This document shows positions 4,701 to 20,151 of a DNA stretch of 64,000 nt, piece by piece. Numbering within the stretch: the first letter of the stretch is position 1; each line of letters opens with the position of its first letter. The notes below the pieces were generated by a model that was not told the origin of the DNA, searched no databases, and saw only the letters and a program-made list of their open reading frames with translations. The position numbers and the translations under genes were made by a program. Source of the stretch: Trypanosoma brucei (Eukaryota); NCBI GenBank assembly GCA_000002445.1, contig CM000208.1, positions 3,744,001 to 3,808,000 of the forward strand. The letters run 5' to 3'.

Positions 4701-5244
4701 GTGTCTTGCACATCGACACACTCGAAAAGACGATGCGTATAGAAGGTTTCTGGATGTGCTTCAGGCATTGTGCGGGCGTATCACCCGTGAAGGGTGGCTT
4801 GACCGTACATCTCCATTCGCGGAGGAAGAGCAGGAGGAGCGGATGGGTACTGGAGAACTATCAAGGAACTTGCCCTTCTCTGTTTCGTCTATGGAGCAGC
4901 GTGAATCATCGTTATTACTGCAGGCTAGCAAGCTTACAACGGCGCTGCATCAACGGCGGACCCACAAGCAGCAAGTGATACATGATGATGCATGTATGCA
5001 AATAGCAGAGTTGCAGGAGGAACTGAGGAGAGAACGAGAGCAGCGCCGAAAGCTGCAGGAAGAGCTCGCAGAACTTCGTTTTCGGACAAGCAAATATAAG
5101 GCCAAGCTCTCTTTCATTGACAGTACATTGAAGCCAATGGTCACCAATGGAATCAAGGAACTGGAGGCAATGATCAGTGAGCGAAAGAGGATGCGGAGGT
5201 CTTCACGGGAGGGAGGGCGGAGTGGTGACGGGATAGAACCGTAA
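1723..5244 (+). CDS. Large hypothetical protein (1173 aa), with a Cys-containing N-terminal region and a C-terminal coiled-coil/charged tail (ELQEELRREREQRRKLQEELAELR)
   Basis: Uninterrupted 3.5-kb ORF on the + strand. Such a length is unlikely by chance at about 50% GC. The antisense ORFs overlapping it are short. Poly-T tract upstream at about 1270-1282. Confidence 0.5.
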   Translation: MLTALHVTLPRGQARHDQRCPNRCIVANENTGEVSLIPVVHPSEREPLSRGPVDDTDDEGDEVQFCFGHISISPHHSSIFAKQLAPLLQELWRCFLCYRWGCANSAAKEKDIRKSHSGCPRSSNPARVSEKGRPWCRVCSNELYSLTRSVFVYGSQSTTDRRSLFIHLAKATGQALVQYVDFASPFCCGDRCSVSFSLVDLHHRWGVRDVLNIDDVRQGYSGPHRTRQSQTQGRLWVPPKREGLSNGENVSQRILCAIKQAEAPRSLCTFAEREDHTLRSTLVLTFFISRHSHGAVELTADGATLWGHKHCHRERRREGSVEEARINIILLPDSVAAARGRRDAEESRSLARVLQACGSWRKKVEEGEDPASAGAVHGREPGRVGSVSGDRFGGEVQPPHSEVTSVSLCASPLLSHLFYTTAHYICHVGRGLYSSDLHNPEAKRVGAGNCAGCIGGAERHSPGVSPHCSSCNPSLFGSCGSSIAVDCVDASLGKSIVVCCVNSGLDHRPQVRQALFFVHRVTAGGKSQGATPCERNSFENSGSISEVRQYFQKKKVERENVFSCEHGMRQSPERRSAPIPQPNDTTKPVCTELGERPTDFAASPGDAGAPSDRICSKSKHCCENHVELGSPSSEPPQTTHTATGMHRLHKRTVFGGYDGYQTYNFPHVNHDQSDKDCSSHGFLFDVDKNMSAHSRVVEEAASKGNQLSGLSRGCTRFCTPGDAHSPLTPHARHMPGESSTYNCSAARAALLGEGHTEEEEEKKRPCGNVAQLPRSQVSASEGLNISGGLVGWAKGSHEHCKGPASAMKRTDELAHAYWDLIEAEVETHDSIDHYVRHHVVAPPRTSSSPEPQREVPLWKEGRVEEDRKSLGMPETLLLRKKNVDKSTTTAATSTEQRVEKMINKLEVQLLLLGYRLFLSGLSEDADPVYVAESRDLTRDEGSAHASNHTGVHLPKHIFDTLASNLAQQPGTLGKSESYRVAGKTTFEQSLCWKCLAHRHTRKDDAYRRFLDVLQALCGRITREGWLDRTSPFAEEEQEERMGTGELSRNLPFSVSSMEQRESSLLLQASKLTTALHQRRTHKQQVIHDDACMQIAELQEELRREREQRRKLQEELAELRFRTSKYKAKLSFIDSTLKPMVTNGIKELEAMISERKRMRRSSREGGRSGDGIEP

Positions 5245-5810
5245 AGCATCCACCTTTTTCCCTTGTAGTTTGTTTGTATATATTTTGTCGTGCGTGAGCC
5301 ACACTCTATCATGTATTTCGGGAATTTCCCCAACCTTCACCTTTGATGTTGTACTGTAGTTGGCTGATCAGGAATACCTTTGCTTACCCTTACTTGGATG
5401 AATAATGACCTGTTTTCTTTTCTGTCGTTGAAATGACGCCATGTTTTCATTCCCCCTTCCTACACTCCCGATATCAGTTTGTGGGGGTGGGAGTGTTGTT
5501 TATTTGTACTTGTTTGTTTGCTGGTTTCACAGCTCTTCTAAACCAGTATCACCCTTTAAAGGCGGCGCGTGAGCATCCCTCTGGTTTTGTACGTTGGCAA
5601 TGCAAAGGTGATTGGAAAAGAATGTCAGTACACCGTGGGCTCCGTTCCTTCTTCCGTACGCATGCAAAAGGTAAGTATGTGCATGTGCGTGTGGCTGTGT
5701 GCGCATGTGGGTTCTTCATTGACGCCTCTTCTCGGCCAAACCGTGGGGATACTTATCAGCGGCTACATACCATCAAATTACATCTTCTTCTAATGTACCC
5801 TCACGTTCAG

Positions 5811-5840
5811 CCCCAGCCGCTTTTTTTTTCTGATTTTCCA
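5811..5840 (+). promoter_or_regulatory. Polypyrimidine tract, candidate trans-splicing and polyadenylation signal between the 1723-5244 and 6068-7768 genes
   Basis: ccccagccgctttttttttctgattttcc lies about 230 nt upstream of the ATG at 6068, with AG dinucleotides downstream of it. Confidence 0.45.
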
Positions 5841-6067
5841 AGCTGTCTACAGCACGCCCATTGATACGCGGGTGTAGACACCAGGGTTAAAACGTTAGCG
5901 CGCGTGCGTACACGCAACTATATTTTTGGTGTGCACCTTCGCATTCATATATACGTATAAATATATATAAGTACGTGGCACGCCGCACCTCAGATTTAAC
6001 GATCTACGTCAGCAGGATACGTTTGAAACATCACATACCACCTGCGGAGGGACGGTAACTCGCAAGT

Positions 6068-7768
6068 GTGTGTGAGATGAATGGAAGGTATGCTCGGCAG
6101 TCGGGGTGTTTTCGTGGTAAACGTCCACGTGAAATCACAACGCAGAAGCTTTTCAACCGTGCCATCGAGCATTTTCAGTCGATTTATAATGACTCTGTGG
6201 AACGCCACGAACGCGAGACCTTCGCTTCCCGTGCAGTATTTGAAAAGCAATGTGGTGTGGACCGCGAGCACTTTAACAGGGCGCATGGAAGTTTGGCGAA
6301 ACATGGCAAGGGGAAAGACTTCGCACTCGTTTTAGAGCAGTTTGAAAACGAGGAAGCGAAATTGCAGAGGGAGCACGAAGAAGAACTTCAGCGGGTGTAT
6401 CCCCTTGCCTTTTTGGAGCTTGACACAGCCGCTGTCCTTTCCCTGACACTGATTCCTAGGCTAAAGAGCAAACTCGACTTACTGGAGAGGCAGCTCACTC
6501 AGCGGCGCAAATTCACCAATCAACATCAAGGCGATGCCGCGGCGAGAGGAAGTCACTCTCGAGATGTTGACCCTCCTGTGGACGCAAAGGAGTCGGACGA
6601 CAAAAACGGTGCGGATGGCGTCCCGTCTGAACTGAATGATGCGAAGACTGGAATCGAAGAGGATGATGTCGGAACCTTGTGTGTTGGAAGAGGCGCGTAC
6701 ATTACGGGTGATGAGCCCAGTGAAGTGGAAGAGTCAGATTCTAGCGCGTTGGTTCAGGTTTTAGATACTAGCGTTGAAGATGGGAAGGTAGGCACTGGTA
6801 CTGGAGGGGGGTTTCGTAATCATGTGCACCGATTGGTCTCAAGAGGATTGGGTAACATTTTGTCCATCCCAACAGACGTCATGCGAGCTGGCGCTGCCGA
6901 TTTTGCCCGTATTGGCTTACTCCTCAACACTGAGAGCCGCAGGCAACGGCGCGATGAAAGGAGGAAATTTCTTCGCAGCCACATGGAAGTTTGTGGTCCC
7001 GAGGGGAAGACCATCGGGAAATGGGAGCTGAAGCGCCTCCTCCAGGAAGGAAAAGAAGATAAATTGAAGCAGGAAGAAATTTTTGCAGCGCTGGAGGCGG
7101 CGAAAACTATGCCGGAATTTACCGGAAGTGATATGAATGCCAATATAGTTGAAAGCATGGAGAACGATGGGGCTCCACGTAAAACTGCTGGTGCTTCAAC
7201 TGCATCACGCGAAACAGGGGACACAACCGCGTCGGAAACGGTTGTAAAGCGCCATACCAAAATCGTCCTTCGGGGAAACGGTTCACGACGGGACGATGGT
7301 GTTCCATTTACCAGAAAGGACTTTGAATGGACTAGTCTGGGCCTTGACGACGAGAGTATAGGTGAGGGCTCTCGTATGGAGAAGTTGGCGGAGTCGTACA
7401 TGTGGCCGAAGCGAACTGAGGACCGTATTCCTCACATTTTGTGTGGTGAGGTCATACCCACGTATTTTCGTGTGAGGCAGTATCAATTAGACACTTCTTC
7501 ACCCACCACCGCGACCGTGCAAATGAGTGCCACCGGAGAGGATGGCTGTCCCTCTACTCTGTTGGATGATCTCGCAGAGGCGACCCAACTTGATCCAGTG
7601 CGAGAAGGGATGTCTAATGGAGAGAAAGGAGTAGTTACAAAAAAGTCCCCGTTAGTGTTTCGAATTCCGTTTCGCGCGAAAAGTGTTTGGCTGAAGGTAG
7701 ACACCTTGGGAGACTTTATTGCCAGCCAGGTGAAGTTCTTCGGGGCCGTAACTTCTCGTGAAATATAG
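6068..7768 (+). CDS. Hypothetical protein (566 aa), acidic with coiled-coil segments
   Basis: 1.7-kb ORF co-oriented with its neighbours. Polypyrimidine tract at 5811-5840 upstream. An alternative Met lies at 6081 in another frame, so the start is uncertain. Confidence 0.5.
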   Translation: MCEMNGRYARQSGCFRGKRPREITTQKLFNRAIEHFQSIYNDSVERHERETFASRAVFEKQCGVDREHFNRAHGSLAKHGKGKDFALVLEQFENEEAKLQREHEEELQRVYPLAFLELDTAAVLSLTLIPRLKSKLDLLERQLTQRRKFTNQHQGDAAARGSHSRDVDPPVDAKESDDKNGADGVPSELNDAKTGIEEDDVGTLCVGRGAYITGDEPSEVEESDSSALVQVLDTSVEDGKVGTGTGGGFRNHVHRLVSRGLGNILSIPTDVMRAGAADFARIGLLLNTESRRQRRDERRKFLRSHMEVCGPEGKTIGKWELKRLLQEGKEDKLKQEEIFAALEAAKTMPEFTGSDMNANIVESMENDGAPRKTAGASTASRETGDTTASETVVKRHTKIVLRGNGSRRDDGVPFTRKDFEWTSLGLDDESIGEGSRMEKLAESYMWPKRTEDRIPHILCGEVIPTYFRVRQYQLDTSSPTTATVQMSATGEDGCPSTLLDDLAEATQLDPVREGMSNGEKGVVTKKSPLVFRIPFRAKSVWLKVDTLGDFIASQVKFFGAVTSREI

Positions 7769-8379
7769 ATTTTTGATCCCCATAGGTATTTGTTATACTT
7801 TCTACTCCCTCCTCCCTTTCCAGTGCATTCCTTGCTTGTTCCTGGACTCATTTCGTCTTTGAGCCTTTGTCTCATATCGTGTAATACATTTTGAAGTAAC
7901 TTCCACCGCGTGAAAGAGGTGAGGAGGATATGGGGCGCAGCAAACAGGAGGGGAAAGGGGGGAATGACAGCAGTAAAAGTGTCTTGATATACAAATTTGC
8001 ATAGATGCCCCTCCCATTGTGTGGAGCGGTGCGGCATACACGCACAAGTAGTCACGGATCATCCTGATTACTGGAGTTCTTGCACCACAGGCACTTAATG
8101 TGATCTCTCCCCTCTACTTCCTCCCTGCGCAACTCCCACTGTAAGCATCTTCTAGGAAAGAACAAAAAGTAGATAGGGGCACTTTTCTGACTTTCTTTGG
8201 AAATCTTGTTTTAGCTGTGGTAGTTCCCCTGTGGTCCTTGTGTCGTCTGTCTACTACCGGTAATATTTTTACGATTTTAGGTCTATTTTTGGCTCTCCAT
8301 TGCGGGTTGTGGGGGCTTAAAGCGAGGTCAACAAACCTTTAGATAAGTAGACAAGGGAGCGATAATTACCACAATAGAC

Positions 8380-8772
8380 ATGGCGGGCACCACCGCTATA
8401 GTAAAGGACTCGGCAATGTCTCGAGAATTGCAGCAAGACTGCATTGACTGTGCCGCGCATGCACTACACGTCATGGGGCTGAATGAGCAGACCGCGATGG
8501 CACAGTTCATCACGCGCGAACTCAATAGCAAATACGGATCACGTTTCCACTGTGTTGTAGGACGCTCCTTCGGTTCATATGTTGGTCATGACAGCCAGTA
8601 CTTCATCTACTTCCTGATCGGTGATTGTGCGTTTCTGATCTGGCGCACCGTAGATACCTTCGAAGAGCGTGTGTTTTATGCAGCGGTGGACGACATAGCC
8701 GTCGGAAACAAATATTATAGTTGCGAAAAAAACACCTGTGTTGATGAGAAGCTGGGACAAACGTCAATGTAA
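8380..8772 (+). CDS. Dynein light chain LC8 (DYNLL family) with an unusual C-terminal extension of about 40 aa
   Basis: The translation aligns along the whole LC8 fold. [24 protein letters not shown] matches [63 protein letters not shown] matches [41 protein letters not shown]. The ORF then continues for about 42 more residues to the stop at 8772. Confidence 0.85.
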   Translation: [130 protein letters not shown]

Positions 8773-9040
8773 AAAACTTCCAAGTACAGCAACCACCAGC
8801 GTAACACCCCTACAAATGAAATCGGTCGGCTGTGCAATGTCATTTGTTTGTTCTCTTGCCCTTGCATTCACGGAGCTACTTATATGATGCACTAGATCCC
8901 TGCTTGGCACTTGCTATTCAACTCCTCCCCTAAAAAAGACACCTGGTCGTGAACGTGTCAACATAATCCCCATCATCACAATGAATTCACTTGTTTGACA
9001 TATTCAAGTCCAAAGGAAGTGGGTGAAATAGACGGAGGGT

Positions 9041-9658
9041 TTGAATTCTTCTATCAATCAAACGACTATGTATGGTGTTGAGTGTTTTCGGCCACTTGGC
9101 CTCGCCGCCTTTATGTTGGCAGTCCTTTCGGTCGTGCGGGTCGCAACATCAGAAGATGACCCAAACAAACTGACGCCGCAGGAGCGCATAGATAGATACC
9201 GCAAACGAGTTGCGCGGTCGTTCCTCCTTAAGATGGCTGAAGAACCCGGTGCCATGACGCTCCCCTCAGGCGTCGTTGTTCACGTGCTCAACCGCGGCGG
9301 TGGTGGACGGTCGGCTGCTGTTGATGATGAATGCACCGTTCACTACACAGGAACACTGAAGGATGGAACTGTGTTTGACAGCTCACGAGATCGCGGACAG
9401 CCCTTCAAACTTAAGCTGGGCCAAGTGATTGTTGGTTGGCAGGAGGTCCTCCAACTGATGCGACCCGGCGACCGCTGGAAAGTTTTCATCCCACCTGAAC
9501 ACGGCTACGGTGCGAGAGGTGCAGGCCCAAAGATCCCACCCCACTCCGCACTGGTGTTTGACATGGAGTTGATTTCCATTGAAGGCGGCGGCAACGGTCG
9601 CACTGAAAAGGAGGTGGAGGAAGTTCTCAAGGGTTACGCGGGGAAGGGAGACTTGTAA
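9041..9658 (+). CDS. MIP: Secreted FKBP-type peptidyl-prolyl cis-trans isomerase, macrophage infectivity potentiator (MIP)-like
   Basis: N-terminal hydrophobic signal-like segment (LGLAAFMLAVLSVVRVATS) followed by a canonical FKBP domain: VHYTGTLKDGTVFDSSRDRGQPFKLKLGQVIVGWQEVLQLMRPGDRWKVFIPPEHGYGARGAGPKIPPHSALVFDMELISI. Confidence 0.85.
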   Translation: MNSSINQTTMYGVECFRPLGLAAFMLAVLSVVRVATSEDDPNKLTPQERIDRYRKRVARSFLLKMAEEPGAMTLPSGVVVHVLNRGGGGRSAAVDDECTVHYTGTLKDGTVFDSSRDRGQPFKLKLGQVIVGWQEVLQLMRPGDRWKVFIPPEHGYGARGAGPKIPPHSALVFDMELISIEGGGNGRTEKEVEEVLKGYAGKGDL

Positions 9659-10170
9659 TTGGTTGATTATTGAGAGGAAGGGGGAAGGTAAAAGAATTTG
9701 CCGTGTATGATACTGTGCGAGGGTGCATAAACGCGCTTGCTGGTAGTGTTCACCGGGGGATCAGAGTTGTTAGGGAGTTAATGTGTGTTAATAGTGTTTG
9801 TTCCCGTTGGAAGAATTTTCACATATGTATGGGGGAAAGGGAGCAAAATCAAGGCGGCACCGCCCGGGAGGCATCATCTCTACTGCTGTTTTTTGCATAT
9901 CTATTGTGTTTGCCACCCTCCTACTCCTGTAAAGTAGGGGGTTGTATTCTACCGATGTTAAAGCAGAGACAACGACAGAAAATGGCAAGGGCAATAACAA
10001 CCAAAACAACCGTGATCATCCAAGTTGCAGGTACCAATAATGGAGACGATACCAAGTGCCTATCTTATCTCTTGTCACCAAATGAAAAAGTTTCTAAGGA
10101 GAGAAAAAAGCGCGTCATACTCTTTACGAATCATTCCATCACTTTTTTGTTTGTGCGCTTACTTTCAGCA

Positions 10171-12864: not shown

Positions 12865-14979
12865 ATGGACCCCTCGAGAGCGTTGCAGGAGGGTTCTGAG
12901 GTCTCTGCACTGAACTCAACGGATAATTTTCAGTTTCCCGCGCAGGCCCTTACGGAATGTACGGAATGCAACGGGGATGTGGCGGCTTCAAGCTTTGCAA
13001 GGCTCTCGACGGATGGTGAAGGCGGTAGAGCAAGTGAAAAGGAAGGTGACTCACCGGATCAGATGGATAATGACAACAGTGAAGGGGGCGAATTTGATAT
13101 TTTTGAAGGCGTGGCCCCCGGCGTCTCGAAATGCTCCACTCCACAAACCGAGGGCACGTACGCGGACCGACAACCCCCTCAGCTCTCCAACGCATTGGAG
13201 CGGGAAACTTCGCAGGAAATAAACCGCATTGAAAATAAAGTAGATGCTGTACGCATTGACAGTAGCACAGTTAACACCTCAGACGACTTTATAAGTACCG
13301 TATTCGACGACGTTGACAGGTCCCCATCCCCATTCATTGTGTTGGACCATGTGGAGGACGGAGGCTGTCTTACGTATCAGGGGACCGTGGACTCGGCCAT
13401 GCTTCCGCTAAAAGAGGAGCGGGCGCGAATACTGCAGCGACTCGGGATGTTGCGTGCCACTGAGCAAAGCCGGAGGCAGCAGCTTTGTAGAAAGTATGAG
13501 GGAGAGGTAAACATGCGAATGGTGTCGCTAGCGGTAACCGCAGCTGAACAGATAGATGCGCCGTATGGAAATAGTACGTATCTGACCTCCTCAAGTGTAG
13601 TTTCCACTAACCTTGATACCCAACACAATGAAGCGGAAGAACGAGAACAAGAACAAGACCAAGACCAAGTTCTCCCCCAGGACAGTAGAAGGGGAGAAAC
13701 TACTGTAACTCGGGGAGTAATGGCGGGCTGTTCGACAACAGTATCAAAGGAAGTAACAGGTAGCGTCCGGGAGGGAGCCTCCCTCGTGTGCGATCAAGTT
13801 GATAATGTAGAGAGTGACGAGGATGAACCTCATTTCACCGAAAGACTAACAATGTTGGACTGCATGACACAGGAGTGCTACAAGGGACTAGTCCAAGAGG
13901 GTGAGTTTTTTTCTGGTGAAGCAGAAAGTATGGTTAGCGAAAACAGTGCGGATACCGACTCCAGTGGAGACGGGGTACACAGCCGCGCTGATAACATGAC
14001 GGTGTGTGACAGTGTCGATTGTAATAAGCTACACACGGCGCCGTCAGAAGGTTTTTACATACCAGTACCCATGGACAGAACAGGACAAGTGGAATACGTC
14101 TTCAATGGAGATGACGCGCAGAGACGGTTGAAGTTTCGTAGAGAGGAATATGAGTTGCAGAGGGCTTTGGGTCGAGTAGAGGGGAAGATAGACGCCCTAA
14201 CAGCGTGTCGCCTCAGCAAAGGCATTCACTACTGGCAGAGCGACGATTCAACTGACAGCTGCCCGCGCTGTGGCAAAGTTTTCTCATTCACTGTGCGGCG
14301 GCATCACTGCCGGCGTTGTGGGGTGTTGCTGTGTAACGACTGCTGTTCACAGGTTGGGCGAGATATGTATGTGCAGGTGCGCACTAGTGCAGTCACAAGT
14401 TCGGACGTGGGGCCTTCCCATGGTTCGTCTTCATCCCAGCGCACTACGGGAAATGCCACGGACGACGCATGGCTATTCGGTACATGTGAGCCTACTGGTT
14501 CTGGGGACACACGGGAAAAAAGACCTGGAAGCACTCCCAACTCACTTCAACCTAACCAAACCATTAGTGACACCTGGCAATACCAGGGGAGTAGCAGTAA
14601 CAACAACAGTCTGCCCAATTGTATATGCCTGCCAAACAACGGACGACGGGATTATCGTGGGCGGGGTGGCCTGAAGGTGCGGTATGTCCCGTGGGTCCGC
14701 ATTTGCAATGCCTGTTATCTTGTCTGCCTTCGCGCCCGACTTGGAGGGAATTATAAACCCATTCTTGAGGACAATCGCCGCCGCTTCCATGTCCTTAAAG
14801 AGGAGGAACAGTCCCTTTTGTGTATCAATAGTACATGGGAAATGCGATGGGCACAACTAAATGTACTGAAACATGTCGTCATTGAGCGAACAGTGCATAT
14901 GGCCCACGACCAGGTGCAGCAAGCGGTTGGGGTATTGTCCGATTGGCTTCAAGAGTGGCGGTTATGCCTCAAACCGTAA
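12865..14979 (+). CDS. FYVE zinc-finger domain protein (704 aa)
   Basis: All three FYVE signatures are present. WxxD appears as HYWQSDDS, R(R/K)HHCRxCG as RRHHCRRCG, and the terminal RVC-type motif as VRICNACY. The rest of the protein is acidic and low-complexity. Confidence 0.8.
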   Translation: MDPSRALQEGSEVSALNSTDNFQFPAQALTECTECNGDVAASSFARLSTDGEGGRASEKEGDSPDQMDNDNSEGGEFDIFEGVAPGVSKCSTPQTEGTYADRQPPQLSNALERETSQEINRIENKVDAVRIDSSTVNTSDDFISTVFDDVDRSPSPFIVLDHVEDGGCLTYQGTVDSAMLPLKEERARILQRLGMLRATEQSRRQQLCRKYEGEVNMRMVSLAVTAAEQIDAPYGNSTYLTSSSVVSTNLDTQHNEAEEREQEQDQDQVLPQDSRRGETTVTRGVMAGCSTTVSKEVTGSVREGASLVCDQVDNVESDEDEPHFTERLTMLDCMTQECYKGLVQEGEFFSGEAESMVSENSADTDSSGDGVHSRADNMTVCDSVDCNKLHTAPSEGFYIPVPMDRTGQVEYVFNGDDAQRRLKFRREEYELQRALGRVEGKIDALTACRLSKGIHYWQSDDSTDSCPRCGKVFSFTVRRHHCRRCGVLLCNDCCSQVGRDMYVQVRTSAVTSSDVGPSHGSSSSQRTTGNATDDAWLFGTCEPTGSGDTREKRPGSTPNSLQPNQTISDTWQYQGSSSNNNSLPNCICLPNNGRRDYRGRGGLKVRYVPWVRICNACYLVCLRARLGGNYKPILEDNRRRFHVLKEEEQSLLCINSTWEMRWAQLNVLKHVVIERTVHMAHDQVQQAVGVLSDWLQEWRLCLKP

Positions 14980-15743
14980 CAAAAAAAAAAGAAAAAAAGA
15001 AGAAAAAGAGGGTCATTCCTTCGTGTCGTTTCTTTGGTTGTTTTATTCATTGATGGTTTCCCGCCCTCATTTCCTTCCCCCCCTTCCCCTTCTACTTTCT
15101 TTTTTACCCTTTTTTTCTTGTTTTTTTTAGTTTTATCGTTCCGGTCTCCTTTCTTTTTTTCTGTTGTTGTTTGACAGATGTTCCAATTATTATTATTATT
15201 ATTCTCGATTGCTATTATGTTTCTCCCATCCGAGTTTTCCTCCTCTATGTATTATCAAGTGAATAAAGGGAAGATGAAAAAAATAAGTGTGTATGCCTAC
15301 GTTTGTACCTCACTACTCGCACAAATTATATATAAACATGTTTGAGTATATTCGAATAAATAAAATAAATGTACACCTTCACGCTCCTTATGGACATCTG
15401 TCTTTAGCTTTTCATTCCACCGTTTTCACCTCGCTTGCTCAGTTCTATTCTGTTTTGTGTTGTGTTGTGTTGTTGTTGTTTTTTTTTTTCCTTTACGTAT
15501 TTTCATTGTTTTATTTGTTTTGTTTTCATCTTTTGTTCCTTTATCACCACTATTTTTGTCATTTTTCTGGCCCACACCTCACAGCCTAGAAGAAGGGGTA
15601 TGTGAAGTAAAAATGTAGCGGTTCCTTTTTGTGTTTTACTTCTGCTTTTTTTTTTGTTTCATGGGTGCGTTAGAGGAGAACGTAGTGTGCGAAAAGAAAA
15701 AAAAGAAAAAAGTGTGTGCATAAGAAGGAAAAGAGAAAAGGAA

Positions 15744-15745
<2 letters not shown>

Positions 15746-15777
<32 letters not shown>
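15746..15777. repeat. (AT)16 microsatellite
   Basis: Direct reading. Lies within the 3-kb low-complexity intergenic interval. Confidence 0.95.
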
Positions 15778-15780
<3 letters not shown>

Positions 15781-16401
15781 AGTTTGAGTGGTTTGTTGAT
15801 TGGGGGGGGGTTGGGAAGGAAGGTGGGATGGAAGAAAAGAGAAGTTGAGAAGCTGAAAAGATGGTAAAACACCAAAATGGCGCTTCGGAGGCCCTCACTG
15901 TCGAGTGGTTGTTTTTTTTTTGTCTTTTGTTTGGGGGGGCGGGAGGGTTTTCCTCTCCCCTTTTCTTGTCTCTCTTGCATAAACGTGGAGACACGGATTT
16001 TTTTTTTAAAAAAAGAGAGAAAACGGAAAAGAAATGTGGGTGCACTCAATATAGAAAAGGAAGTGAGAGTACATATGAAGCCAACTTTTGTACGTATGCT
16101 TACGGAGACATAAGGAATGTATATAATTTCATTACCTTGCGTCGTCTTTGTTGCCATACGCTATCTTTACGTGTGTGTTTGTGTGTGTGTGGGGGGGGGG
16201 GAAATGTGAGGAGTTTTTCTTTATTTTCTTTCTATTTCTTTTTATTTTTCTTTCTTTGCTTCATAGGGTTTTTTTTTCTTGCGGTTCGAGCACAATCTGT
16301 GGTTTTACCTCTGTTGTTGCTCCCATCCCTTTGTACCCCCTTCTTGCATTTCTTCTGTTTTTTTTTGTGTGTGTGTTTGAGTGTGAATGTGTTTGTTAGT
16401 G

Positions 16402-16403
<2 letters not shown>

Positions 16404-16439
<36 letters not shown>

Positions 16440-16458
16440 TTATTATTATTATTATTTT
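16404..16458. repeat. Compound microsatellite (TA)16(TTA)7
   Basis: Direct reading. Confidence 0.95.
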
Positions 16459-17258
16459 CTTCTCCCCTCCCCCCTTTTCCACTTTTGTCTATCCCTAATC
16501 TTTATTATTACTATTATTGTTGTTGTTGTTACTGTTATTGTTAATGTTACAGGTGTGGCTTTTCCCCACTGCTCTTTTGTTTTGTCTTCAGTTGGGGCAG
16601 ATGGTCGATTTTCAGTCATTAGTTTTGCTTCTATCGTTTCTTCTTCAATGATCAAGAAGATCTTTTTTTCTTAACAAAAAGAAAAGGAAAAAAAGAAAAG
16701 AAAACAAGAAACTACAGATCTTGTCCACTCGAATTGTGTGACAAGGGCCAATCTGTATTTTTTTTTTTTCATGTGAGTGACTCACTCGTTTGACCGTTTT
16801 CTTGTGTTGTTCAATTTTGTCGTTTTGTTCAGGGGTTATCAAATTATCTCCATCGTGCATTCACTTGAATCACACGGATAGCTTCTGAAACAATATAAAG
16901 CCGAAACGAAATTTTCTCTTCCCTCCATTTTGCTTTTTCCTCGCAGCCAATCACGCAATTTATTTACTTTTTTGCACTGCGCTTTCTTTCTTTCTTTTTT
17001 TCTTACTTTTTGCTCCCTCCCTTTTTTCTTCTCCTCTTGTAGTGGTCGCGCTTCATTGTTGTTGTTTTTTTTTTTGTGTGTGTGTGTGTTTTTTCTCATT
17101 TTCGCTTTCAGTAAGTTCATTTTCCTCCCCCCCCTTCCCTCCTTCAGTAACACACCACTACACACTCACCCATTCATGATTACCATTCTTAATTATTGTG
17201 GTTGCCATCATTGCTGTTGTTGGTGAGTTTTATTCCTTTTCATGTGCGTGGAGGAGCC

Positions 17259-17280
17259 GTGTGTGTGTGTGTGTGTGTGT
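17259..17280. repeat. (TG)11 microsatellite
   Basis: Direct reading. Another (TG)n-like run lies at about 17389-17401. Confidence 0.9.
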
Positions 17281-18036
17281 AGCAGTTTCAAATGAGTCAC
17301 AAAATAAAATACTTTTTTTTAAAAAAAAGTAAAGGTACCAAATGAAAGTGCCGTTTATGAGGGGGAGGGGAAACAAGAAGGAAGAAGAGGTGTGTGTGTG
17401 TGGGGGGGGAGAAAGTTTGTTATTATTTAATTCTACCATTTCTTTTTGGTGCTTTTCCTTATGTTCCCTGTTTTGTTTTATCACTGACCCATCTTGCGTT
17501 TCATCAACAACACACTTTACGTGTACGAACAAACCCCCACCATACACCCCAAAAAACAAAAGGGGAACCAATCCAGATGTATACATGTTGAAGGAAGAAC
17601 ACCATACACTCATACACATATATAAAATATATAAATGAATATAAGTATATTATTTTTTTTTAATTTTTCTTTGAAATATGTTTTGTCTACCCAAGTACTC
17701 GTTACAAAAATGTAGACTCCCTTTCACTGTTCTCCTCAACATTTTTTTTCGACAGTTGTTATCAATATTCGGCTTCATTTGTATCTTCTCTTTCTGTGCA
17801 CTTGTACATACGCATCTCCGTTTACATCTTACTTTCCTTCTCCTTTCCTTCGCTTCAGGAAAAAGGCTGTGGAACAAGTGAAGTAAAGAGGAGGAGGAGG
17901 AGGAGAAAACCTTCAACGGAATACGAACTTTATTCTGTTTTGTTTTTCATTTATTCCGTTTCCTTTTTTTTTTCTTTAAACGAAAAGTAACAGGAGGGAG
18001 GGAAGGAGGGGAAACGCATCGTGAGTACCAAACCAA

Positions 18037-20151
18037 ATGAGCTCTACATTTATTATATCCGCTTCTTATGACAAAGAAATACGCTTTTGGGACGGATCAA
18101 CGGGCCGAACAGTCCGCAGTTTTCCCTTTCAGGGATCACAGGTCAATGCGATGTTGACGATTCCAAACACCACACACCTCGCCGTTGGAGGATTTGGTGC
18201 CGTTCGCGTGTATGATATTGGAGTTGAAGCTGGATCAGCTGGGGGCAATAGTGGAACACAACCACCCCCGGTTTTCTCCGTTTATGAAAATCAATACGCA
18301 ATGAACGTAACGAGCCTGGGGACGTTCCCACTCTACCCGCAGCGTGACGAGGAAATGCACTTAAACTCTGCGGAAGCTTCCATGAGTAGCTTGTTTTGCA
18401 CTTCTGCAGACCTTGCTGCAACCGCCACATTAGACCCCACACCGACCACGGGCTCTGCTGGAGTGTTGACTGTTCTTTTCGCCACTTCGGAGGACGGGCA
18501 CATTCGGTTTTTTAACGCAAACTCACCCACAACACTAAACCTTCTGCTCGATATTAGCGCGGGTGCGGCCATCACGTGCAGTGCCGTCTCCCCGGATCGT
18601 CACACCTTGTTCACCGGTTCCCAGATCGGTCGCGTCTCGGTGTGGCACATACCAAGTATCATTGCGGCAGCTGCGCAACACGGAGACAGCACTAGCAGAG
18701 GTGGTCTCTTTGCTAGTAAGCCAATGCAAGAGATTGCCTTCAATGGGGATTACACAGCCATTAGAAGTATAGCCGTGGAACCGCTGGCGCGTTGGGCTGT
18801 GGCAGCAACAAGTGCTGGGAAGCTTCATTTTATGTGTTTTGGAAGGTGCGCGCAGAACCTTACCGGCACACATGCCTCCGAGGCACACGCAGCTGGAAGG
18901 TTGGCGAATGAAGAGGTGCCTGGAGAAGAGGAAGAAACAAGCCCGCAAGTGCAGCGACCGGTAGCGGAGGGGACGGTCGCCGACAGCGCTCCCGCAATCG
19001 CCACGAATGACTCTAGTTCACGTTCCATTAATTCCGCAAACACCCTGCGCCCTAGTTGCGGGCCCTTGTCTGTGCTTAAAACACATGGAAACGAAGGAAG
19101 TGGGGGTGACGTGGCTGCTAACGCTAGTGAGTCACCCCTTGCTAACGATGGTGTGACATTTTCTGATGCAGTCGACGCCTCAGACACGGGAAATTCAACC
19201 CCGGGAATGGACGTGACCAAGAAGTTCAGCGCACCGGGCCTCTTGACCTCATCATCGGTCAATTCCTCATCCATTCAGCAACAATTTTTTTTGAAGGTTT
19301 TTCACTCGTTTCAGGCGCACCACAAATATATCCTTAAGGTGGCCATCTCACCCAATATAGATATCTTGGTGACATGTTGTGGGGACTACACCGTTGGGAG
19401 ATTCGTAATCCCTCCAATACTTCAGTGCTGTGACGTGACGACCAAGCACGCTTCTGGGTGTGAAAGTGACTCCCACAGCGCAGGAGTATCCTCGCTGACA
19501 AGTGCGGTGAGATTGTCTGGCCTCACCGAGAAAAACACGGCGGCAGGTTCTGATCCCACAAACCAGGTGGCTGCAGCGGGGGATAACAATGGGGCCGGAG
19601 CTGGTGGTGCAACCGCAGCAAGTTCGTCCTCACTTCTTCAACCTAAGGCAGATGAGGGTGCCGTCCTCACTCCTACAGCGGCACCGTCAACGTCGTTTAC
19701 ACATGATGGATCAACTGGAAGCGTAGAAGATGGTGTAAAGCCGGTGGCTGCGGTAGCTAATGACCCTACCGTGAATGAATCTCAACCCTTGGCAACGATG
19801 GAAACGGTGAAAAAAATGACAAGTCCTGCTGACGCCCCAACAGAGAGGCATGATGCGTTCCACTTGGCCACGTCAAACTTTCCACAGCTGGTTGCAGAGG
19901 GAAGTACACAAGTTAACATTGGCGATGGGGTTGAGTTCAAGGAACTAAAACCCCTGACAGGACACACGCGGTGGGTCTGGGACTGTGCCTTCAGTGATTG
20001 CGGGAGGTTTCTCTTCACAGCTAGCAGCGACCAAACGTTACGTATGTGGACCTCTCTCCTCAGTGACAGACCACATTCCACCAGCTTCGTTGGTCATATG
20101 AAACCAGTGGTGTGCTGCATGCTCTATGTGGAAAGGAAGAAAAACCAATAG
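18037..20151 (+). CDS. LST8: LST8 (TOR complex WD40 subunit) homolog containing two large low-complexity insertions
   Basis: The N-terminus ISASYDKEIRFWDGSTGRTVRSFPFQGSQVNAMLTIPNTTHLAVGGFGAVRVYDI aligns with LST8 [57 protein letters not shown]. The C-terminus GHTRWVWDCAFSDCGRFLFTASSDQTLRMW...GHMKPVVCCML aligns with [28 protein letters not shown]...GHQKAVVCLAF. The internal blades LFATSEDGHIRFF and HHKYILKVAISPNIDILVTCCGDYTVGRF also align. Confidence 0.75.
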   Translation: MSSTFIISASYDKEIRFWDGSTGRTVRSFPFQGSQVNAMLTIPNTTHLAVGGFGAVRVYDIGVEAGSAGGNSGTQPPPVFSVYENQYAMNVTSLGTFPLYPQRDEEMHLNSAEASMSSLFCTSADLAATATLDPTPTTGSAGVLTVLFATSEDGHIRFFNANSPTTLNLLLDISAGAAITCSAVSPDRHTLFTGSQIGRVSVWHIPSIIAAAAQHGDSTSRGGLFASKPMQEIAFNGDYTAIRSIAVEPLARWAVAATSAGKLHFMCFGRCAQNLTGTHASEAHAAGRLANEEVPGEEEETSPQVQRPVAEGTVADSAPAIATNDSSSRSINSANTLRPSCGPLSVLKTHGNEGSGGDVAANASESPLANDGVTFSDAVDASDTGNSTPGMDVTKKFSAPGLLTSSSVNSSSIQQQFFLKVFHSFQAHHKYILKVAISPNIDILVTCCGDYTVGRFVIPPILQCCDVTTKHASGCESDSHSAGVSSLTSAVRLSGLTEKNTAAGSDPTNQVAAAGDNNGAGAGGATAASSSSLLQPKADEGAVLTPTAAPSTSFTHDGSTGSVEDGVKPVAAVANDPTVNESQPLATMETVKKMTSPADAPTERHDAFHLATSNFPQLVAEGSTQVNIGDGVEFKELKPLTGHTRWVWDCAFSDCGRFLFTASSDQTLRMWTSLLSDRPHSTSFVGHMKPVVCCMLYVERKKNQ

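What the first reader, a model, noticed from the sequence alone, without database searches (positions are those of the whole stretch)
14980..18036. Gene-free, strongly pyrimidine-skewed, low-complexity interval of about 3 kb between two co-oriented genes
Other intergenic gaps in this window are 0.3-1.6 kb. This one is about 3 kb. It is almost entirely homopolymer and microsatellite sequence: long T/C runs on the + strand, (AT)16, (TA)16(TTA)7, (TG)n, (TGTT)n-like runs, and G-runs such as tgggggggggttgggaaggaaggtgggatgg at 15801-15831, which has G-quadruplex potential. There is no credible ORF. In kinetoplastids such regions usually correspond to very long UTRs with regulatory elements, or to replication or chromatin landmarks inside a polycistron. 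A hidden ncRNA is unlikely but not excluded.
Basis: seen in the sequence. Interest (0 to 1): 0.5.

Follow-up and report, generated by a model that had tools for sequence, protein, structure and literature searches.

The report
Long low-complexity trypanosome 3' untranslated region
The 3-kb "empty" stretch is most likely the unusually long, repeat-rich 3' untranslated region of a heat-inducible Trypanosoma brucei zinc-finger (FYVE) gene, a kind of regulatory mRNA tail that is already described in this parasite, so it is real but ordinary.

Summary
The window is Trypanosoma brucei brucei TREU927 chromosome 10. The interval 14980-18036 lies between the FYVE "zinc finger protein, putative" gene (Tb927.10.15610) and the LST8-like WD40 gene (Tb927.10.15640).

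It is the longest gap in the window and has the lowest complexity. The listed microsatellites and G-runs are at the stated coordinates, and there is no credible ORF, tRNA or Rfam RNA. It is not "strongly pyrimidine-skewed": pyrimidines make up 57%, within the range of the other gaps. Instead, U-rich pyrimidine blocks alternate with A/G-rich purine blocks, with palindromes and two (UUA)n tracts.

The gap is also long in T. b. gambiense, T. vivax, T. cruzi, T. rangeli and T. theileri (2.7-4.5 kb). No sequence block is shared between T. brucei and the other species, and it evolves fast by microsatellite slippage.

The best reading is about 2.7-2.9 kb of Tb927.10.15610 3'UTR, followed by the LST8 splice-acceptor region and a short 5'UTR. 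This mRNA is published as heat-inducible. A 2026 preprint uses it as an exemplar in the study that defines long "P5-UTRs" (poly-purine, poly-pyrimidine, palindromic).

I found no transcript map, so the UTR boundaries are inferred. Verdict: already known, low interest.

The parts
12865..14979 (+). Upstream gene: FYVE-domain 'zinc finger protein, putative', T. brucei TREU927 Tb927.10.15610 (old id Tb10.61.0730; EAN78920.1). Inferred owner of the long 3'UTR.
   Evidence: Pfam FYVE, E 7.7e-14. Exact-sequence match to EAN78920.1/XP_828032.1. The Tb927.10.15610 name comes from PMC3616968 Table 2.
14980..17845 (+). Inferred 3'UTR of Tb927.10.15610, about 2.7-2.9 kb. The distal end is predicted at about 17715-17845, roughly 142 nt upstream of the predicted LST8 splice sites. 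The boundary has not been mapped.
   Evidence: Inference from the published median spacing of 142 nt between poly(A) site and splice site (PMC2936537) and the predicted acceptors.
14981..15012 (+). A-rich poly-purine tract directly after the stop codon. It is complementary (27 nt, 85%) to the U-rich tract at 15101-15127.
   Evidence: (I12).
15016..15246 (+). First large pyrimidine-rich block. It contains C7 at 15077 and the (AUU/UUA)6 tract at 15186-15203, and is followed by AG at 15258. It is a potential internal, normally unused, splice signal.
15186..15203 (+). (UUA)n tract number 1, matching the (UUA)4 heat-shock/ZC3H11-type motif. It is conserved in T. b. gambiense.
   Evidence: The motif definition is from the preprint.
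15397..15568 (+). Second pyrimidine/GU-rich block, (UGU/UGUU)n plus U11, followed by AG at 15583.
15672..15869 (+). Purine-rich block. It contains A-rich tracts (15685-15740), the palindromic (AT)16 at 15746-15777, and the G9-containing string at 15801-15831.
   Evidence: (AT)16 is (AT)8 and G9 is shortened in DAL972.
15933..15947 (+). The only canonical G-quadruplex motif (loops up to 7 nt) in the interval: GGGGGGGCGGGAGGG.
16001..16014 (.). Perfect palindrome T7A7, inside the T10A7 run.
16171..16201 (+). (TG)n followed by G11. The same (TG)nGn pattern recurs at 17391-17409.
   Evidence: (D2).
16214..16589 (+). Third large pyrimidine-rich block. It contains the 36-nt palindrome (TA)16 at 16402-16437 and (UUA)n tract number 2 at 16436-16456. 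AG follows at 16590.
   Evidence: The repeat length is polymorphic in T. equiperdum and DAL972.
16655..16772 (+). Local RNA double hairpin in which the A-rich poly-purine tract (16676-16711) is fully paired to U-runs. It is an example of a 'masked' poly-purine tract.
   Evidence: strand folding gives -32.8 kcal/mol, z -4.82, 0 of 200 shuffles as stable, and centroid equal to MFE. The fold is retained in DAL972 and T. equiperdum.
16912..17145 (+). Fourth and strongest pyrimidine-rich block, (CUUU)n, U11, (UG)n and C8, followed by AG at 17146.
17233..17619 (-). Annotated antisense ORF, 'hypothetical protein, unlikely' (EAN78921.1). It is a spurious gene model.
   Evidence: Exact look-up. It is on the strand opposite to the polycistron. 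A 25-nt (GT)n insertion and other indels in DAL972 disrupt it, and DAL972 has different antisense ORFs called instead. No homologue was found in the other species' gaps.
17310..17331 (.). 22-nt perfect palindrome TACTTTTTTTTAAAAAAAAGTA.
17717..17987 (+). Predicted trans-splicing signal region of LST8. Polypyrimidine tract 17717-17856 is followed by AG at 17857-17858, and tract 17928-17977 is followed by AG at 17986-17987.
   Evidence: The 327 nt before the LST8 ATG contain no ATG (P about 0.004 by shuffling), as expected for a 5'UTR and splice region (PMC2926603).
17988..18036 (+). Predicted minimal 5'UTR of LST8: 49 nt, or 178 nt if the AG at 17857 is used.
   Evidence: Inference. Published 5'UTR medians are 89-130 nt.
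18037..20151 (+). Downstream gene: LST8-like WD40 protein, Tb927.10.15640 (EAN78922.1).
   Evidence: Pfam WD40. Homologues are named wat1/LST8. mLST8 = Tb927.10.15640. Exact match.

Best explanation
**What it is.** The interval is transcribed as part of the + strand polycistron of T. brucei chromosome 10. I infer that it is partitioned as follows:
- About 2.7-2.9 kb forms the 3'UTR of the FYVE 'zinc finger protein' mRNA, Tb927.10.15610.
- The last 50-320 nt hold the polypyrimidine tracts and AG acceptor(s) for trans-splicing of LST8 (Tb927.10.15640) and its short 5'UTR.

- Its A/G-rich tracts can base-pair with its U/C-rich tracts, and its palindromes can fold on themselves.
- The published model holds that this pairing masks positive A-rich elements and makes mRNA abundance and translation temperature-dependent in an AGO1-dependent way.
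- Two (UUA)n tracts add candidate binding sites for the heat-shock regulator ZC3H11.
- The many internal polypyrimidine tracts followed by AG would normally be kept silent, for example by DRBD18-type masking. When they are used, they would give shortened mRNAs plus UTR-internal non-coding fragments.

**Shown here:** gene identities, anatomy, motif content, lack of ORF or ncRNA, and conserved length.
**Taken from the literature:** heat-inducibility of this mRNA and the class model.
**Inferred:** UTR boundaries and every mechanistic step for this particular UTR.
For: **Identity**
- The FYVE, antisense-ORF and LST8 proteins are exact matches to the consecutive TREU927 entries EAN78920, EAN78921 and EAN78922.
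- The downstream gene is Tb927.10.15650, with a CDS of exactly 1767 nt. mLST8 is Tb927.10.15640. Tb927.10.15610 is 'zinc finger protein, putative'.

**Regulation**
- It is named among the most heat-inducible 'RBPs' at 40 C in bloodstream forms. Its motif map is drawn as an exemplar next to RBP10 and ZC3H11 (bioRxiv 10.64898/2026.01.20.700697).

**Class features found in the interval**
- Length is about 3 kb, against a median 3'UTR of 388-400 nt with a range up to about 6 kb.
- It has the highest density in the window of U-rich pyrimidine 9-mers (12.4/kb), and its density of A-rich purine 9-mers (6.2/kb) is marginally the highest, matched by two other gaps (6.1 and 5.9/kb).
- It has 5 runs of G5 or longer and 5 runs of C5 or longer.
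- Palindromic tracts cover 46.5 bases/kb, against a shuffle mean of 12.4 and maximum of 33.4.
- A-tract/U-tract inverted repeats are present, and there is a stable hairpin that pairs an A-rich tract (z -4.8).
- (UUA)4 or longer occurs only here in the 64 kb.

**No competing feature**
- Rfam gives 0 hits at gathering threshold and nothing credible at E up to 10. There is no tRNA.
- No ORF is conserved.

**Conservation**
- The orthologous FYVE-to-LST8 gap is the longest local gap in every species checked: 3069 nt in T. b. gambiense, 2737 in T. vivax, 4099 in T. cruzi, 4491 in T. rangeli and about 3210 in T. theileri. Their neighbouring gaps are 0.46-1.4 kb.

**LST8 side**
- There are strong polypyrimidine tracts with AG at 17857 and 17986.
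- The 327 nt upstream of the ATG are ATG-free (P about 0.004).
- Published 5'UTRs are short, with 80% under 248 nt.

**Literature on mechanism**
- Poly-purine/poly-pyrimidine masking model (PMC11405848).
- DRBD18 masking of UTR-internal polypyrimidine tracts (PMC9380746).
Against: - I could not reach any spliced-leader or poly(A) site map for this locus, so the distal poly(A) site is a prediction.
- The interval has several internal polypyrimidine tracts that are much stronger than the published median of 18 nt, each followed by AG. The major FYVE mRNA could therefore end early, for example near 15100, with the rest processed into separate RNAs.
- A gene model numbered inside the gap (Tb927.10.15620) is listed as up 3.6-fold in a supplementary table of a DRBD3 study that attributes such increases to cryptic splice-site activation.
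- There is no sequence conservation outside the T. brucei group. The within-group substitution and indel rate is higher than in neighbouring gaps (19.6 subs/kb and 7.9 indel events/kb, against 12.8-14.4 and 1-6.7). Any function must therefore lie in composition and length, not in specific sequence. That is also what neutral slippage-prone DNA would look like.
- The preprint text does not state the UTR length of this gene. It shows A-rich, U-rich and (UUA)4 motif tracks for it but does not say that (UUA)4 sites occur in its UTR.
- In T. vivax, T. cruzi and T. rangeli the orthologous gaps are long but not of lower complexity than their neighbours.
Confidence: 0.72

Rival explanations
1. Multi-transcript reading. 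The internal polypyrimidine tract-AG sites are used constitutively. The FYVE mRNA would then have a short 3'UTR, and the rest of the interval would be cut into one or more separate spliced-leader-capped, polyadenylated non-coding RNAs (lncRNAs or 'UTR-internal transcripts'), possibly with their own function on the neighbouring FYVE or LST8 genes.
For: - There are five internal pyrimidine blocks of 29-376 nt, each followed within 1-15 nt by AG (15258, 15583, 15989, 16590, 17146). The published median tract is 18 nt.
- Kolev 2010 found 394 genes with alternative processing inside the 3'UTR that yields a non-coding transcript, and 1,114 novel transcripts.
- 1,428 mostly intergenic lncRNAs are annotated in T. 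brucei (PMC9200285).
- Tb927.10.15620, numbered inside this gap, is up log2FC 1.86 in a DRBD3 study where up-regulation is ascribed to cryptic splice sites.
Against: - No transcript evidence for this locus could be retrieved.
- Searches of the held supplements of two lncRNA papers for the four IDs Tb927.10.15620-15650 (the FYVE ID .15610 was never searched there) returned no hit in one paper and only the Tb927.10.15620 row in the other. The files were truncated when stored, so this is weak.
- Long 3'UTRs with many unused internal polypyrimidine tracts are the documented norm (PMC9380746).
- The preprint treats 10.15610 as a transcript with motif-rich UTRs.
- No structured or conserved element is present.
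Confidence: 0.2
2. Chromatin or replication landmark. The interval would be an internal RNA polymerase II termination/re-initiation site (H2A.Z, H4K10ac, base J) or an ORC-bound origin inside the polycistron, with G-runs and GT-rich sequence acting as the signal.
For: - It is unusually long and nucleosome-unfavourable, with AT-rich, homopolymer-rich sequence.
- 4 of the 9 runs of G7 or longer in the window lie here, and there are (TG)nGn motifs.
- In L. major the gene upstream of LST8 is different, so a synteny breakpoint maps to this gap.
Against: - All genes across the window are co-oriented.
- There is no tRNA or snRNA gene, and cumulative GC skew shows no inflection at the interval.
- G+T content on the coding strand is 58%, no higher than several ordinary gaps in the window.
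- The G-runs are length-polymorphic or lost in T. b. gambiense.
- The same genes stay co-oriented with a long gap in all five Trypanosoma species.
Confidence: 0.05
3. Hidden gene. The interval would encode a small protein (one of the annotated 'hypothetical' ORFs) or a structured small RNA such as a snoRNA.
For: - Reference annotations place ORF models here: TREU927 EAN78921.1 (129 aa), two models in DAL972 and one in T. equiperdum.
- The grumpy lncRNA precedent shows that a T. brucei intergenic RNA can hide a snoRNA (PMC9200285).
Against: - The TREU927, T. equiperdum and DAL972 annotated ORF models here are all antisense to the polycistron and low in complexity. They have no Pfam hit where tested (the two longest ORFs). 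They differ between TREU927 and DAL972 because microsatellite indels shift the frames. GeneDB itself labels the TREU927 model 'unlikely'.
- Six-frame comparison with the orthologous gaps gives no hit for T. brucei.
- Rfam, which includes T. brucei snoRNA families, gives nothing.
- No block is conserved with T. vivax, T. cruzi, T. rangeli or T. theileri.
Confidence: 0.03

Closest known systems
[quoted passage not shown] They build on the poly-purine/poly-pyrimidine 'masking' code of Trenaman et al. 2024 (PMC11405848).
   Same: - Long (about 2.8 kb).
- Dense A-rich and G-rich purine tracts, with complementary U-rich and C-rich pyrimidine tracts.
- Palindromes: (AT)16, (TA)16, T7A7 and a 22-nt palindrome.
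- The mRNA is heat-inducible, and the gene (10.15610) is drawn as an exemplar in that study.
   Different: - The preprint does not state this UTR's length or explicitly label it a P5-UTR in the text I could read.
- AGO1 dependence of this particular mRNA is not reported in the text.
- This UTR also carries two (UUA)n tracts, the motif the study assigns to the classical heat-shock class.
RBP10 (Tb927.8.2780) 3'UTR, a multi-kilobase 3'UTR with several regulatory segments and many internal polypyrimidine tracts masked by DRBD18 (PMC9380746; PMC8982893).
   Same: - Very long, low-complexity 3'UTR with many unused internal splice signals.
- The mRNA is heat-inducible and is listed in the same tables as Tb927.10.15610.
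- Per the preprint, the RBP10 UTR has both (UUA)4 and A/U-rich tracts. That is the combination I find here.
   Different: - The RBP10 UTR is clearly longer: loss of its last 2 kb is only part of it. The 7.3 kb figure is from my own recollection of the literature, not from a call.
- RBP10 is bloodstream-form specific (BS/PC 4.2), whereas Tb927.10.15610 is not developmentally biased (BS/PC 1.3).
- DRBD18 binding to this UTR is untested.
ZC3H11-bound chaperone mRNA 3'UTRs with (UUA)n / UAU-repeat elements (Droll et al. 2013, PMC3616968).
   Same: - Two (UUA) tracts of 6 or more repeats on the mRNA strand, the only ones in the 64 kb.
- The mRNA increases after heat shock.
   Different: - Classical heat-shock 3'UTRs are of average length (about 520 nt), not 3 kb.
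- Droll et al. state that mRNA changes after heat shock did not correlate overall with ZC3H11 binding.
- ZC3H11 binding to this mRNA is not shown.
UTR-internal / intergenic lncRNAs of T. brucei (Kolev 2010, PMC2936537; Guegan 2022, PMC9200285; DRBD3 study, PMC12592628).
   Same: - Low-GC intergenic sequence with regular polypyrimidine tract-AG signals inside a long 3'UTR.
- A gene model inside the gap responds to DRBD3 depletion.
   Different: No spliced-leader or poly(A)-defined RNA from this interval could be documented here.

Membership tests
Long regulatory 3'UTR of a trypanosome mRNA | Lies directly downstream of a stop codon, on the sense strand of a polycistron, with no intervening gene | tested here: met
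   The FYVE stop codon is at 14977-14979. All genes are on the + strand. There is no credible ORF, tRNA or Rfam hit in 14980-18036.
Long regulatory 3'UTR of a trypanosome mRNA | Mapped poly(A) site(s) about 100-180 nt upstream of the next gene's trans-splice site, with the mRNA spanning the whole region | not testable with these tools
   No RNA-seq, spliced-leader or poly(A) data were reachable. The supplement searches found no entry for this gene. The boundaries are predicted only.
Long regulatory 3'UTR of a trypanosome mRNA | The downstream gene has its own polypyrimidine tract, AG acceptor and short uATG-free 5'UTR at the 3' end of the gap | tested here: met
   Tracts at 17717-17856 and 17928-17977 are followed by AG at 17857 and 17986. 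The 327 nt before the ATG are ATG-free, P about 0.004. These are sequence predictions, not mapped sites.
P5-UTR (poly-purine, poly-pyrimidine, palindromic; thermo-responsive) | 3'UTR longer than average (the class averages about 1 kb; the thermo-responsive set is 'relatively long') | tested here: inconclusive
   The gap is 3057 nt, against a median 3'UTR of 388-400 nt. The length of the actual mRNA has not been mapped.
P5-UTR (poly-purine, poly-pyrimidine, palindromic; thermo-responsive) | Enriched in A-rich and G-rich purine tracts and in potentially complementary U-rich and C-rich pyrimidine tracts | tested here: met
   A-rich purine 9-mers are at 6.2/kb and U-rich pyrimidine 9-mers at 12.4/kb, the highest in the window (the purine figure only marginally, with two other gaps at 6.1 and 5.9/kb). 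There are 5 runs of G5 or longer and 5 runs of C5 or longer. A/U-tract inverted repeats are present. I used my own simple motif definitions, not the authors' MEME motifs.
P5-UTR (poly-purine, poly-pyrimidine, palindromic; thermo-responsive) | Enriched in palindromic tracts | tested here: met
   Palindromes of 10 nt or more cover 46.5 bases/kb, against a shuffle mean of 12.4 and maximum of 33.4. There are 7 tracts, including 32-, 36- and 22-nt perfect palindromes. One other gap in the window reaches a similar density (46.7/kb).
P5-UTR (poly-purine, poly-pyrimidine, palindromic; thermo-responsive) | Transcript and/or protein abundance increases with temperature | not testable with these tools
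   From the literature only. The mRNA is up 5.7x and 4.0x after heat shock in procyclic forms (PMC3616968) and is heat-inducible at 40 C in bloodstream forms (preprint).
P5-UTR (poly-purine, poly-pyrimidine, palindromic; thermo-responsive) | Thermo-response abolished in ago1-null cells | not tested
   The preprint reports this for the class as a whole. It gives no gene-level statement for Tb927.10.15610 in the text available.
ZC3H11-regulated heat-shock mRNA | (UUA)4-type repeat in the 3'UTR | tested here: met
   Tracts at 15186-15203 and 16436-16456 are the only ones in the 64 kb, on either strand. They are conserved in DAL972.
ZC3H11-regulated heat-shock mRNA | mRNA physically bound by ZC3H11 and dependent on it after heat shock | not tested
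   This is not stated for this gene in the text read. Droll et al. note no overall correlation between heat-shock increase and ZC3H11 binding.
Known structured ncRNA (Rfam families, tRNA) | Match to a covariance model at or near the gathering score | tested here: not met
   There are 0 matches at gathering threshold in the window. The best permissive hit is E 0.06 at 21 bits, against a gathering score of 64. ARAGORN finds nothing.
G-quadruplex-forming element | Four G3-or-longer runs with short loops, conserved | tested here: inconclusive
One canonical motif is at 15933-15947. Its G9 run is shortened and interrupted in DAL972. Folding in vivo cannot be tested here.

The most novel reading that the evidence does not exclude
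The gap has stayed 2.7-4.5 kb long in salivarian and stercorarian trypanosomes, although no sequence is shared between T. brucei and the other species. This would mean that UTR length and low-complexity self-complementarity are themselves under selection, as an ancient RNA thermosensor for this FYVE gene. Alternatively, or in addition, cryptic splice sites inside it release a DRBD3-controlled non-coding RNA (the 'Tb927.10.15620' signal) that tunes expression of the adjacent TOR-complex subunit LST8.
Probability: 0.12. Interest if true: 0.45.

Novelty: already known. Interest (0 to 1): 0.15.

Why it matters
It matters little as a discovery. Long, low-complexity 3'UTRs are an established feature of T. 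brucei gene regulation. The upstream gene's heat-inducibility, and its use as an exemplar of motif-rich UTRs, are already published.

Three points from this check have some use:
- The interval's features (purine/pyrimidine alternation, palindromes, (UUA)n) tie directly to that published class.
- The great length of this particular gap is conserved across the genus without any sequence shared between T. brucei and the other species. That is a small argument that length and composition, not specific motifs, are what is maintained.
- The region is a trap for assemblers and annotators: it produces chimeric contigs, N-gaps and shifting 'hypothetical' ORFs.

Tried and rejected
**Hidden ncRNA.** The Rfam gathering scan of the whole window gave 0 hits. 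A permissive scan of 14800-18200 gave only sub-threshold miRNA and leader noise. ARAGORN found nothing.

**Hidden protein.**
- Pfam on the two longest ORFs gave nothing.
- Six-frame fragment comparison with the orthologous gaps gave no T. brucei hit.
- Exact look-ups of 18 ORFs found only the GeneDB 'unlikely' model.

**Deeply conserved element.**
- Word-7 blastn among the orthologous gaps gave only 24-38-nt low-complexity hits for T. brucei.
- nhmmer profiles built from three T. cruzi / T. rangeli / T. conorhini conserved patches found nothing in T. brucei or T. vivax.

**Transcript evidence from Logan contigs.** The three contigs retrieved (L009-L011) carry no spliced leader and simply break at the edges of the interval.

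**Gene-level UTR or lncRNA tables.**
- No supplements are held for PMC9200285, PMC8240603, PMC9380746 and PMC10090614.
- There were no occurrences in PMC11405848, PMC12876127 and PMC10048164.
- Only indirect rows for .15620 and .15650 turned up.

**Long-range pairing of the two (AT)16 tracts** (55-nt arms, 80% complementary). I rejected this as a conserved structure because both tracts change length independently in T. equiperdum and DAL972.

**G-quadruplex as a special feature.** I downgraded this.

**Internal transcription start or origin.** I found no sequence support for this.

**TREU927 locus retrieval.** I could not retrieve the TREU927 locus itself by protein look-up.

Full report
**Where we are.**
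- All large ORFs of the window are on the + strand.
- The ORF at 12865-14979 has a FYVE domain. The ORF at 18037-20151 is a WD40 protein whose homologues are named wat1/LST8.
- Exact-sequence look-ups show that three window proteins are identical to the consecutive T. brucei brucei TREU927 entries EAN78920.1, EAN78921.1 and EAN78922.1 on the 4.05-Mb chromosome 10 record. They are the FYVE protein ('zinc finger protein, putative', Tb10.61.0730), a 129-aa antisense ORF at 17233-17619 ('hypothetical protein, unlikely') and the WD40 protein ('hypothetical protein, conserved').
- mLST8 is Tb927.10.15640 (bioRxiv 10.1101/2024.11.27.625582). 'Zinc finger protein, putative' is Tb927.10.15610 (PMC3616968).
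- By numbering, Tb927.10.15620 and .15630 must be ORF models inside the gap. This is an inference.

**Checking the observation.**
- The interval is exactly the FYVE-to-LST8 gap. At 3057 nt it is the longest in the window; the others are 445-1630 nt.
- Low complexity is real and exceptional:

| Measure | Interval | Other gaps | Shuffle maximum |
|---|---|---|---|
| Homopolymers of 5 or more | 12.9% | 3-8% | 6.4% |
| Strict microsatellites | 18.2% | 1-13% | 3.8% |
| Positions in low-entropy 24-mers | 67.7% | 5-47% | 21% |

- GC is 0.36, against 0.40-0.48 in the other gaps.
- The 'strong pyrimidine skew' is not real. Pyrimidines are 57.3%, within the range of the other gaps, and C is below G.
- What exists is a T-over-A skew and a segmented layout. 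Pyrimidine-rich blocks lie at 15016-15246, 15397-15568, 15912-15976, 16214-16589, 16912-17145, 17431-17502, 17717-17856 and 17928-17977. They alternate with purine-rich blocks at 14981-15012, 15672-15869, 16008-16069, 16676-16711, 17321-17415, 17857-17909 and 17978-18014.
- The flagged G-string at 15801-15831 meets only a relaxed G-quadruplex definition. The single canonical motif is at 15933-15947.

**What is not there.**
- Rfam finds nothing at gathering thresholds in the whole window and nothing credible in a permissive scan of the interval. There is no tRNA.
- The ORFs are low-complexity artefacts. The two longest have no Pfam hit.
- The one TREU927 model is antisense to the polycistron and labelled 'unlikely'.
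- T. b. gambiense DAL972 has two different antisense models, equivalent to window 15586-15980 and 16452-16860. It lacks the TREU927 one, because microsatellite indels shift the frames.
- Six-frame comparison with the orthologous gaps gives no hit for T. brucei.

**Comparative evidence.**
- FYVE and LST8 are adjacent and co-oriented in every Trypanosoma species checked, and the gap between them is always the longest in the locus:

| Species | FYVE-to-LST8 gap | Notes |
|---|---|---|
| T. b. gambiense | 3069 nt | |
| T. vivax | 2737 nt | |
| T. cruzi | 4099 nt | |
| T. rangeli | 4491 nt | includes 867 N |
| T. theileri | about 3210 nt | includes 1631 N |

- Neighbouring gaps in these loci are 0.46-1.4 kb.
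- No sequence block is shared between T. brucei and any of the other species. T. cruzi, T. rangeli and T. conorhini share collinear 60-600-nt patches with one another, but profiles built from these patches find nothing in T. brucei or T. vivax.
- Within the T. brucei group the interval evolves faster than its neighbours. TREU927 against DAL972 gives 19.6 substitutions and 7.9 indel events per kb. Other gaps give 12.8-14.4 and 1-6.7, and coding sequence gives 6.8-8.5 and 0-0.5.
- Almost all indels are repeat-length changes. (AT)16 becomes (AT)8, (GT)11 becomes (GT)23, G9 is shortened, and in T. equiperdum (TA)16 becomes (TA)7.
- What is conserved, therefore, is length and general character, not sequence.

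**What it most likely is.**
- In trypanosomes the whole polycistron is transcribed. 5'UTRs are short: median 89-130 nt, with 80% under 248 nt. 3'UTRs have a median of 388-400 nt but range up to about 6 kb. Poly(A) sites lie a median 142 nt upstream of the next splice site (PMC2926603 and PMC2936537).
- At the 3' end of the gap there are two good polypyrimidine tracts, with AG at 17857-17858 and 17986-17987. These predict LST8 5'UTRs of 178 or 49 nt.
- The 327 nt before the LST8 ATG contain no ATG (P about 0.004). This fits the documented selection against upstream ATGs.
- That leaves about 2.7-2.9 kb as the 3'UTR of Tb927.10.15610. This partition is inferred. I could not reach any spliced-leader or poly(A) map for the locus.

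**How it probably works.**
- The literature describes this kind of UTR. Trenaman et al. [quoted passage not shown] They found that long (over 2 kb) 3'UTRs dense in both poly-purine and U-rich poly-pyrimidine tracts form a regulated class, and they proposed masking of purine tracts by pairing with pyrimidine tracts.
[quoted passage not shown] It shows that classical heat-shock mRNAs carry (UUA)4 motifs linked to ZC3H11. It names Tb927.10.15610 among the most heat-inducible 'RBPs' and draws its motif map as an exemplar beside RBP10 and ZC3H11.
- Independently, Droll et al. [quoted passage not shown]
- The interval has all the class hallmarks:
  - It has the highest density of U-rich pyrimidine words in the window (12.4/kb). 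Its A-rich purine density (6.2/kb) is marginally the highest, matched by two other gaps.
  - It has equal numbers (five each) of runs of G5 or longer and C5 or longer.
  - Palindromes cover 46.5 bases/kb against a shuffle mean of 12.4. They include 32-, 36- and 22-nt perfect palindromes.
  - It has A-tract/U-tract inverted repeats.
  - It has a stable local double hairpin at 16655-16772 in which an A-rich tract is fully paired (-32.8 kcal/mol, z -4.8; retained in DAL972 and T. equiperdum).
  - It contains the only two (UUA)4-or-longer tracts in the entire 64 kb, at 15186-15203 and 16436-16456. Both are conserved in DAL972. Such tracts are also present in the orthologous gaps of T. vivax and T. 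theileri, but not in T. cruzi or T. rangeli.

**Rivals.**
- The serious rival is that the strong internal polypyrimidine tract-AG sites (AG at 15258, 15583, 15989, 16590 and 17146) are used. That would give a short FYVE 3'UTR plus separate non-coding RNAs.
  - Such UTR-internal transcripts are common: 394 genes in Kolev 2010 and 1,428 lncRNAs in Guegan 2022.
  - A model numbered inside the gap, Tb927.10.15620, is up log2FC 1.86 in a supplementary table of a DRBD3 study that ascribes such rises to cryptic splice-site activation.
  - Against it, unused internal tracts are the norm in long 3'UTRs and are masked by DRBD18 (PMC9380746).
  - The two readings are not exclusive. I give the constitutive multi-transcript version about 0.2.
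- A chromatin or replication landmark has no sequence support and gets about 0.05.
- A hidden gene is essentially excluded.

**Verdict.** The feature belongs to a published class, and the gene concerned has already been singled out in that literature. Novelty: already known. Interest: low. The unverified step is the transcript boundary. It could be settled in minutes on TriTrypDB or with existing long-read data.

Noticed in passing
L001 (T. equiperdum OVI CZPT02001790.1) about 7900-7970; window about 15971: The T. equiperdum contig matches the window only from 15971 onward. Upstream it is joined, through a T15G16 homopolymer junction, to unrelated minus-strand genes (adaptin-like, CesT-like). 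This is probably an assembly chimera created at the low-complexity interval.
   Followed up: partly
L004 6791-10000; L007 5510-10000; L008 position 1; L009-L011 ends (window 14998 and 17932); L001 31-N run at window about 17658: Assemblies of several species and strains break or carry N-runs inside this gap: T. theileri has 1631 N, T. rangeli has 867 N, the T. conorhini contig ends 1957 nt upstream of LST8, and Logan contigs stop at the interval edges. Published gap lengths for those species are therefore estimates.
   Followed up: partly
L005 (L. major OU755553.1) 5204-10000: In L. major the gene upstream of LST8 is an AMP-binding enzyme, not the FYVE gene. It is co-oriented, with a 2985-nt gap. 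A Trypanosoma/Leishmania synteny breakpoint therefore maps exactly to this intergenic region.
   Followed up: no
window 18037-20151: The LST8-like protein is 704 aa, and its trypanosomatid homologues are 612-838 aa. That is about twice the roughly 300-330 aa I recall as the usual LST8 size (my own knowledge, not a tool result). WD40 matches fall only at about residues 3-208 and 620-696, so the propeller carries a roughly 400-residue low-complexity insertion.
   Followed up: no
window 16655-16772 (+): A well-defined RNA double hairpin (-32.8 kcal/mol, z -4.8, MFE equal to centroid) pairs the A-rich tract 16676-16711 with flanking U-runs. Its inner stem is not low-complexity (CAGAUCUUGUC...GACAAG...AUCUG). 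The fold is retained in T. b. gambiense and T. equiperdum, but divergence is too low to show covariation.
   Followed up: partly
window 15186-15203 and 16436-16456; L002 9450-9472: (UUA)4-or-longer tracts occur nowhere else in the 64-kb window, on either strand. The only such tract in the 22-kb T. vivax locus also lies in the orthologous gap, and T. theileri has three. T. cruzi and T. rangeli have none in theirs.
   Followed up: partly
window 17233-17619 (-); L012 7533-7913 (-) and 8382-8786 (-): Reference annotations carry different antisense 'hypothetical protein' models inside the gap in TREU927, DAL972 and T. equiperdum. They are not conserved between subspecies, because microsatellite indels change the frames. 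These are spurious gene models that still collect RNA-seq counts in published tables.
   Followed up: yes
interval (gene model Tb927.10.15620, exact coordinates unknown): Tb927.10.15620, 'hypothetical protein', is numbered between the FYVE and LST8 genes. It is listed with log2FC 1.86 (FDR 2.7e-17) in a supplementary table of the DRBD3 lncRNA / cryptic-splice-site study. It also appears in an expression-cluster table of PMC4845500. This may report regulated processing inside the long UTR.
   Followed up: partly
window 15723-15777 and 16409-16463: A purine tract plus (AT)16 and, 631 nt away, (TA)16(TTA)7 plus a pyrimidine tract form 55-nt arms that are 80% complementary. Both AT tracts are exactly 32 nt in TREU927 but change length independently in T. 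equiperdum and DAL972. The symmetry is probably coincidental.
   Followed up: yes
window 39512-49870 and 55673-64000: A 3452-aa ORF shows very uniform composition over about 40-45 kb (constant negative GC skew), which suggests a long tandem-repeat protein. Another ORF of more than 2776 aa runs off the window end.
   Followed up: no
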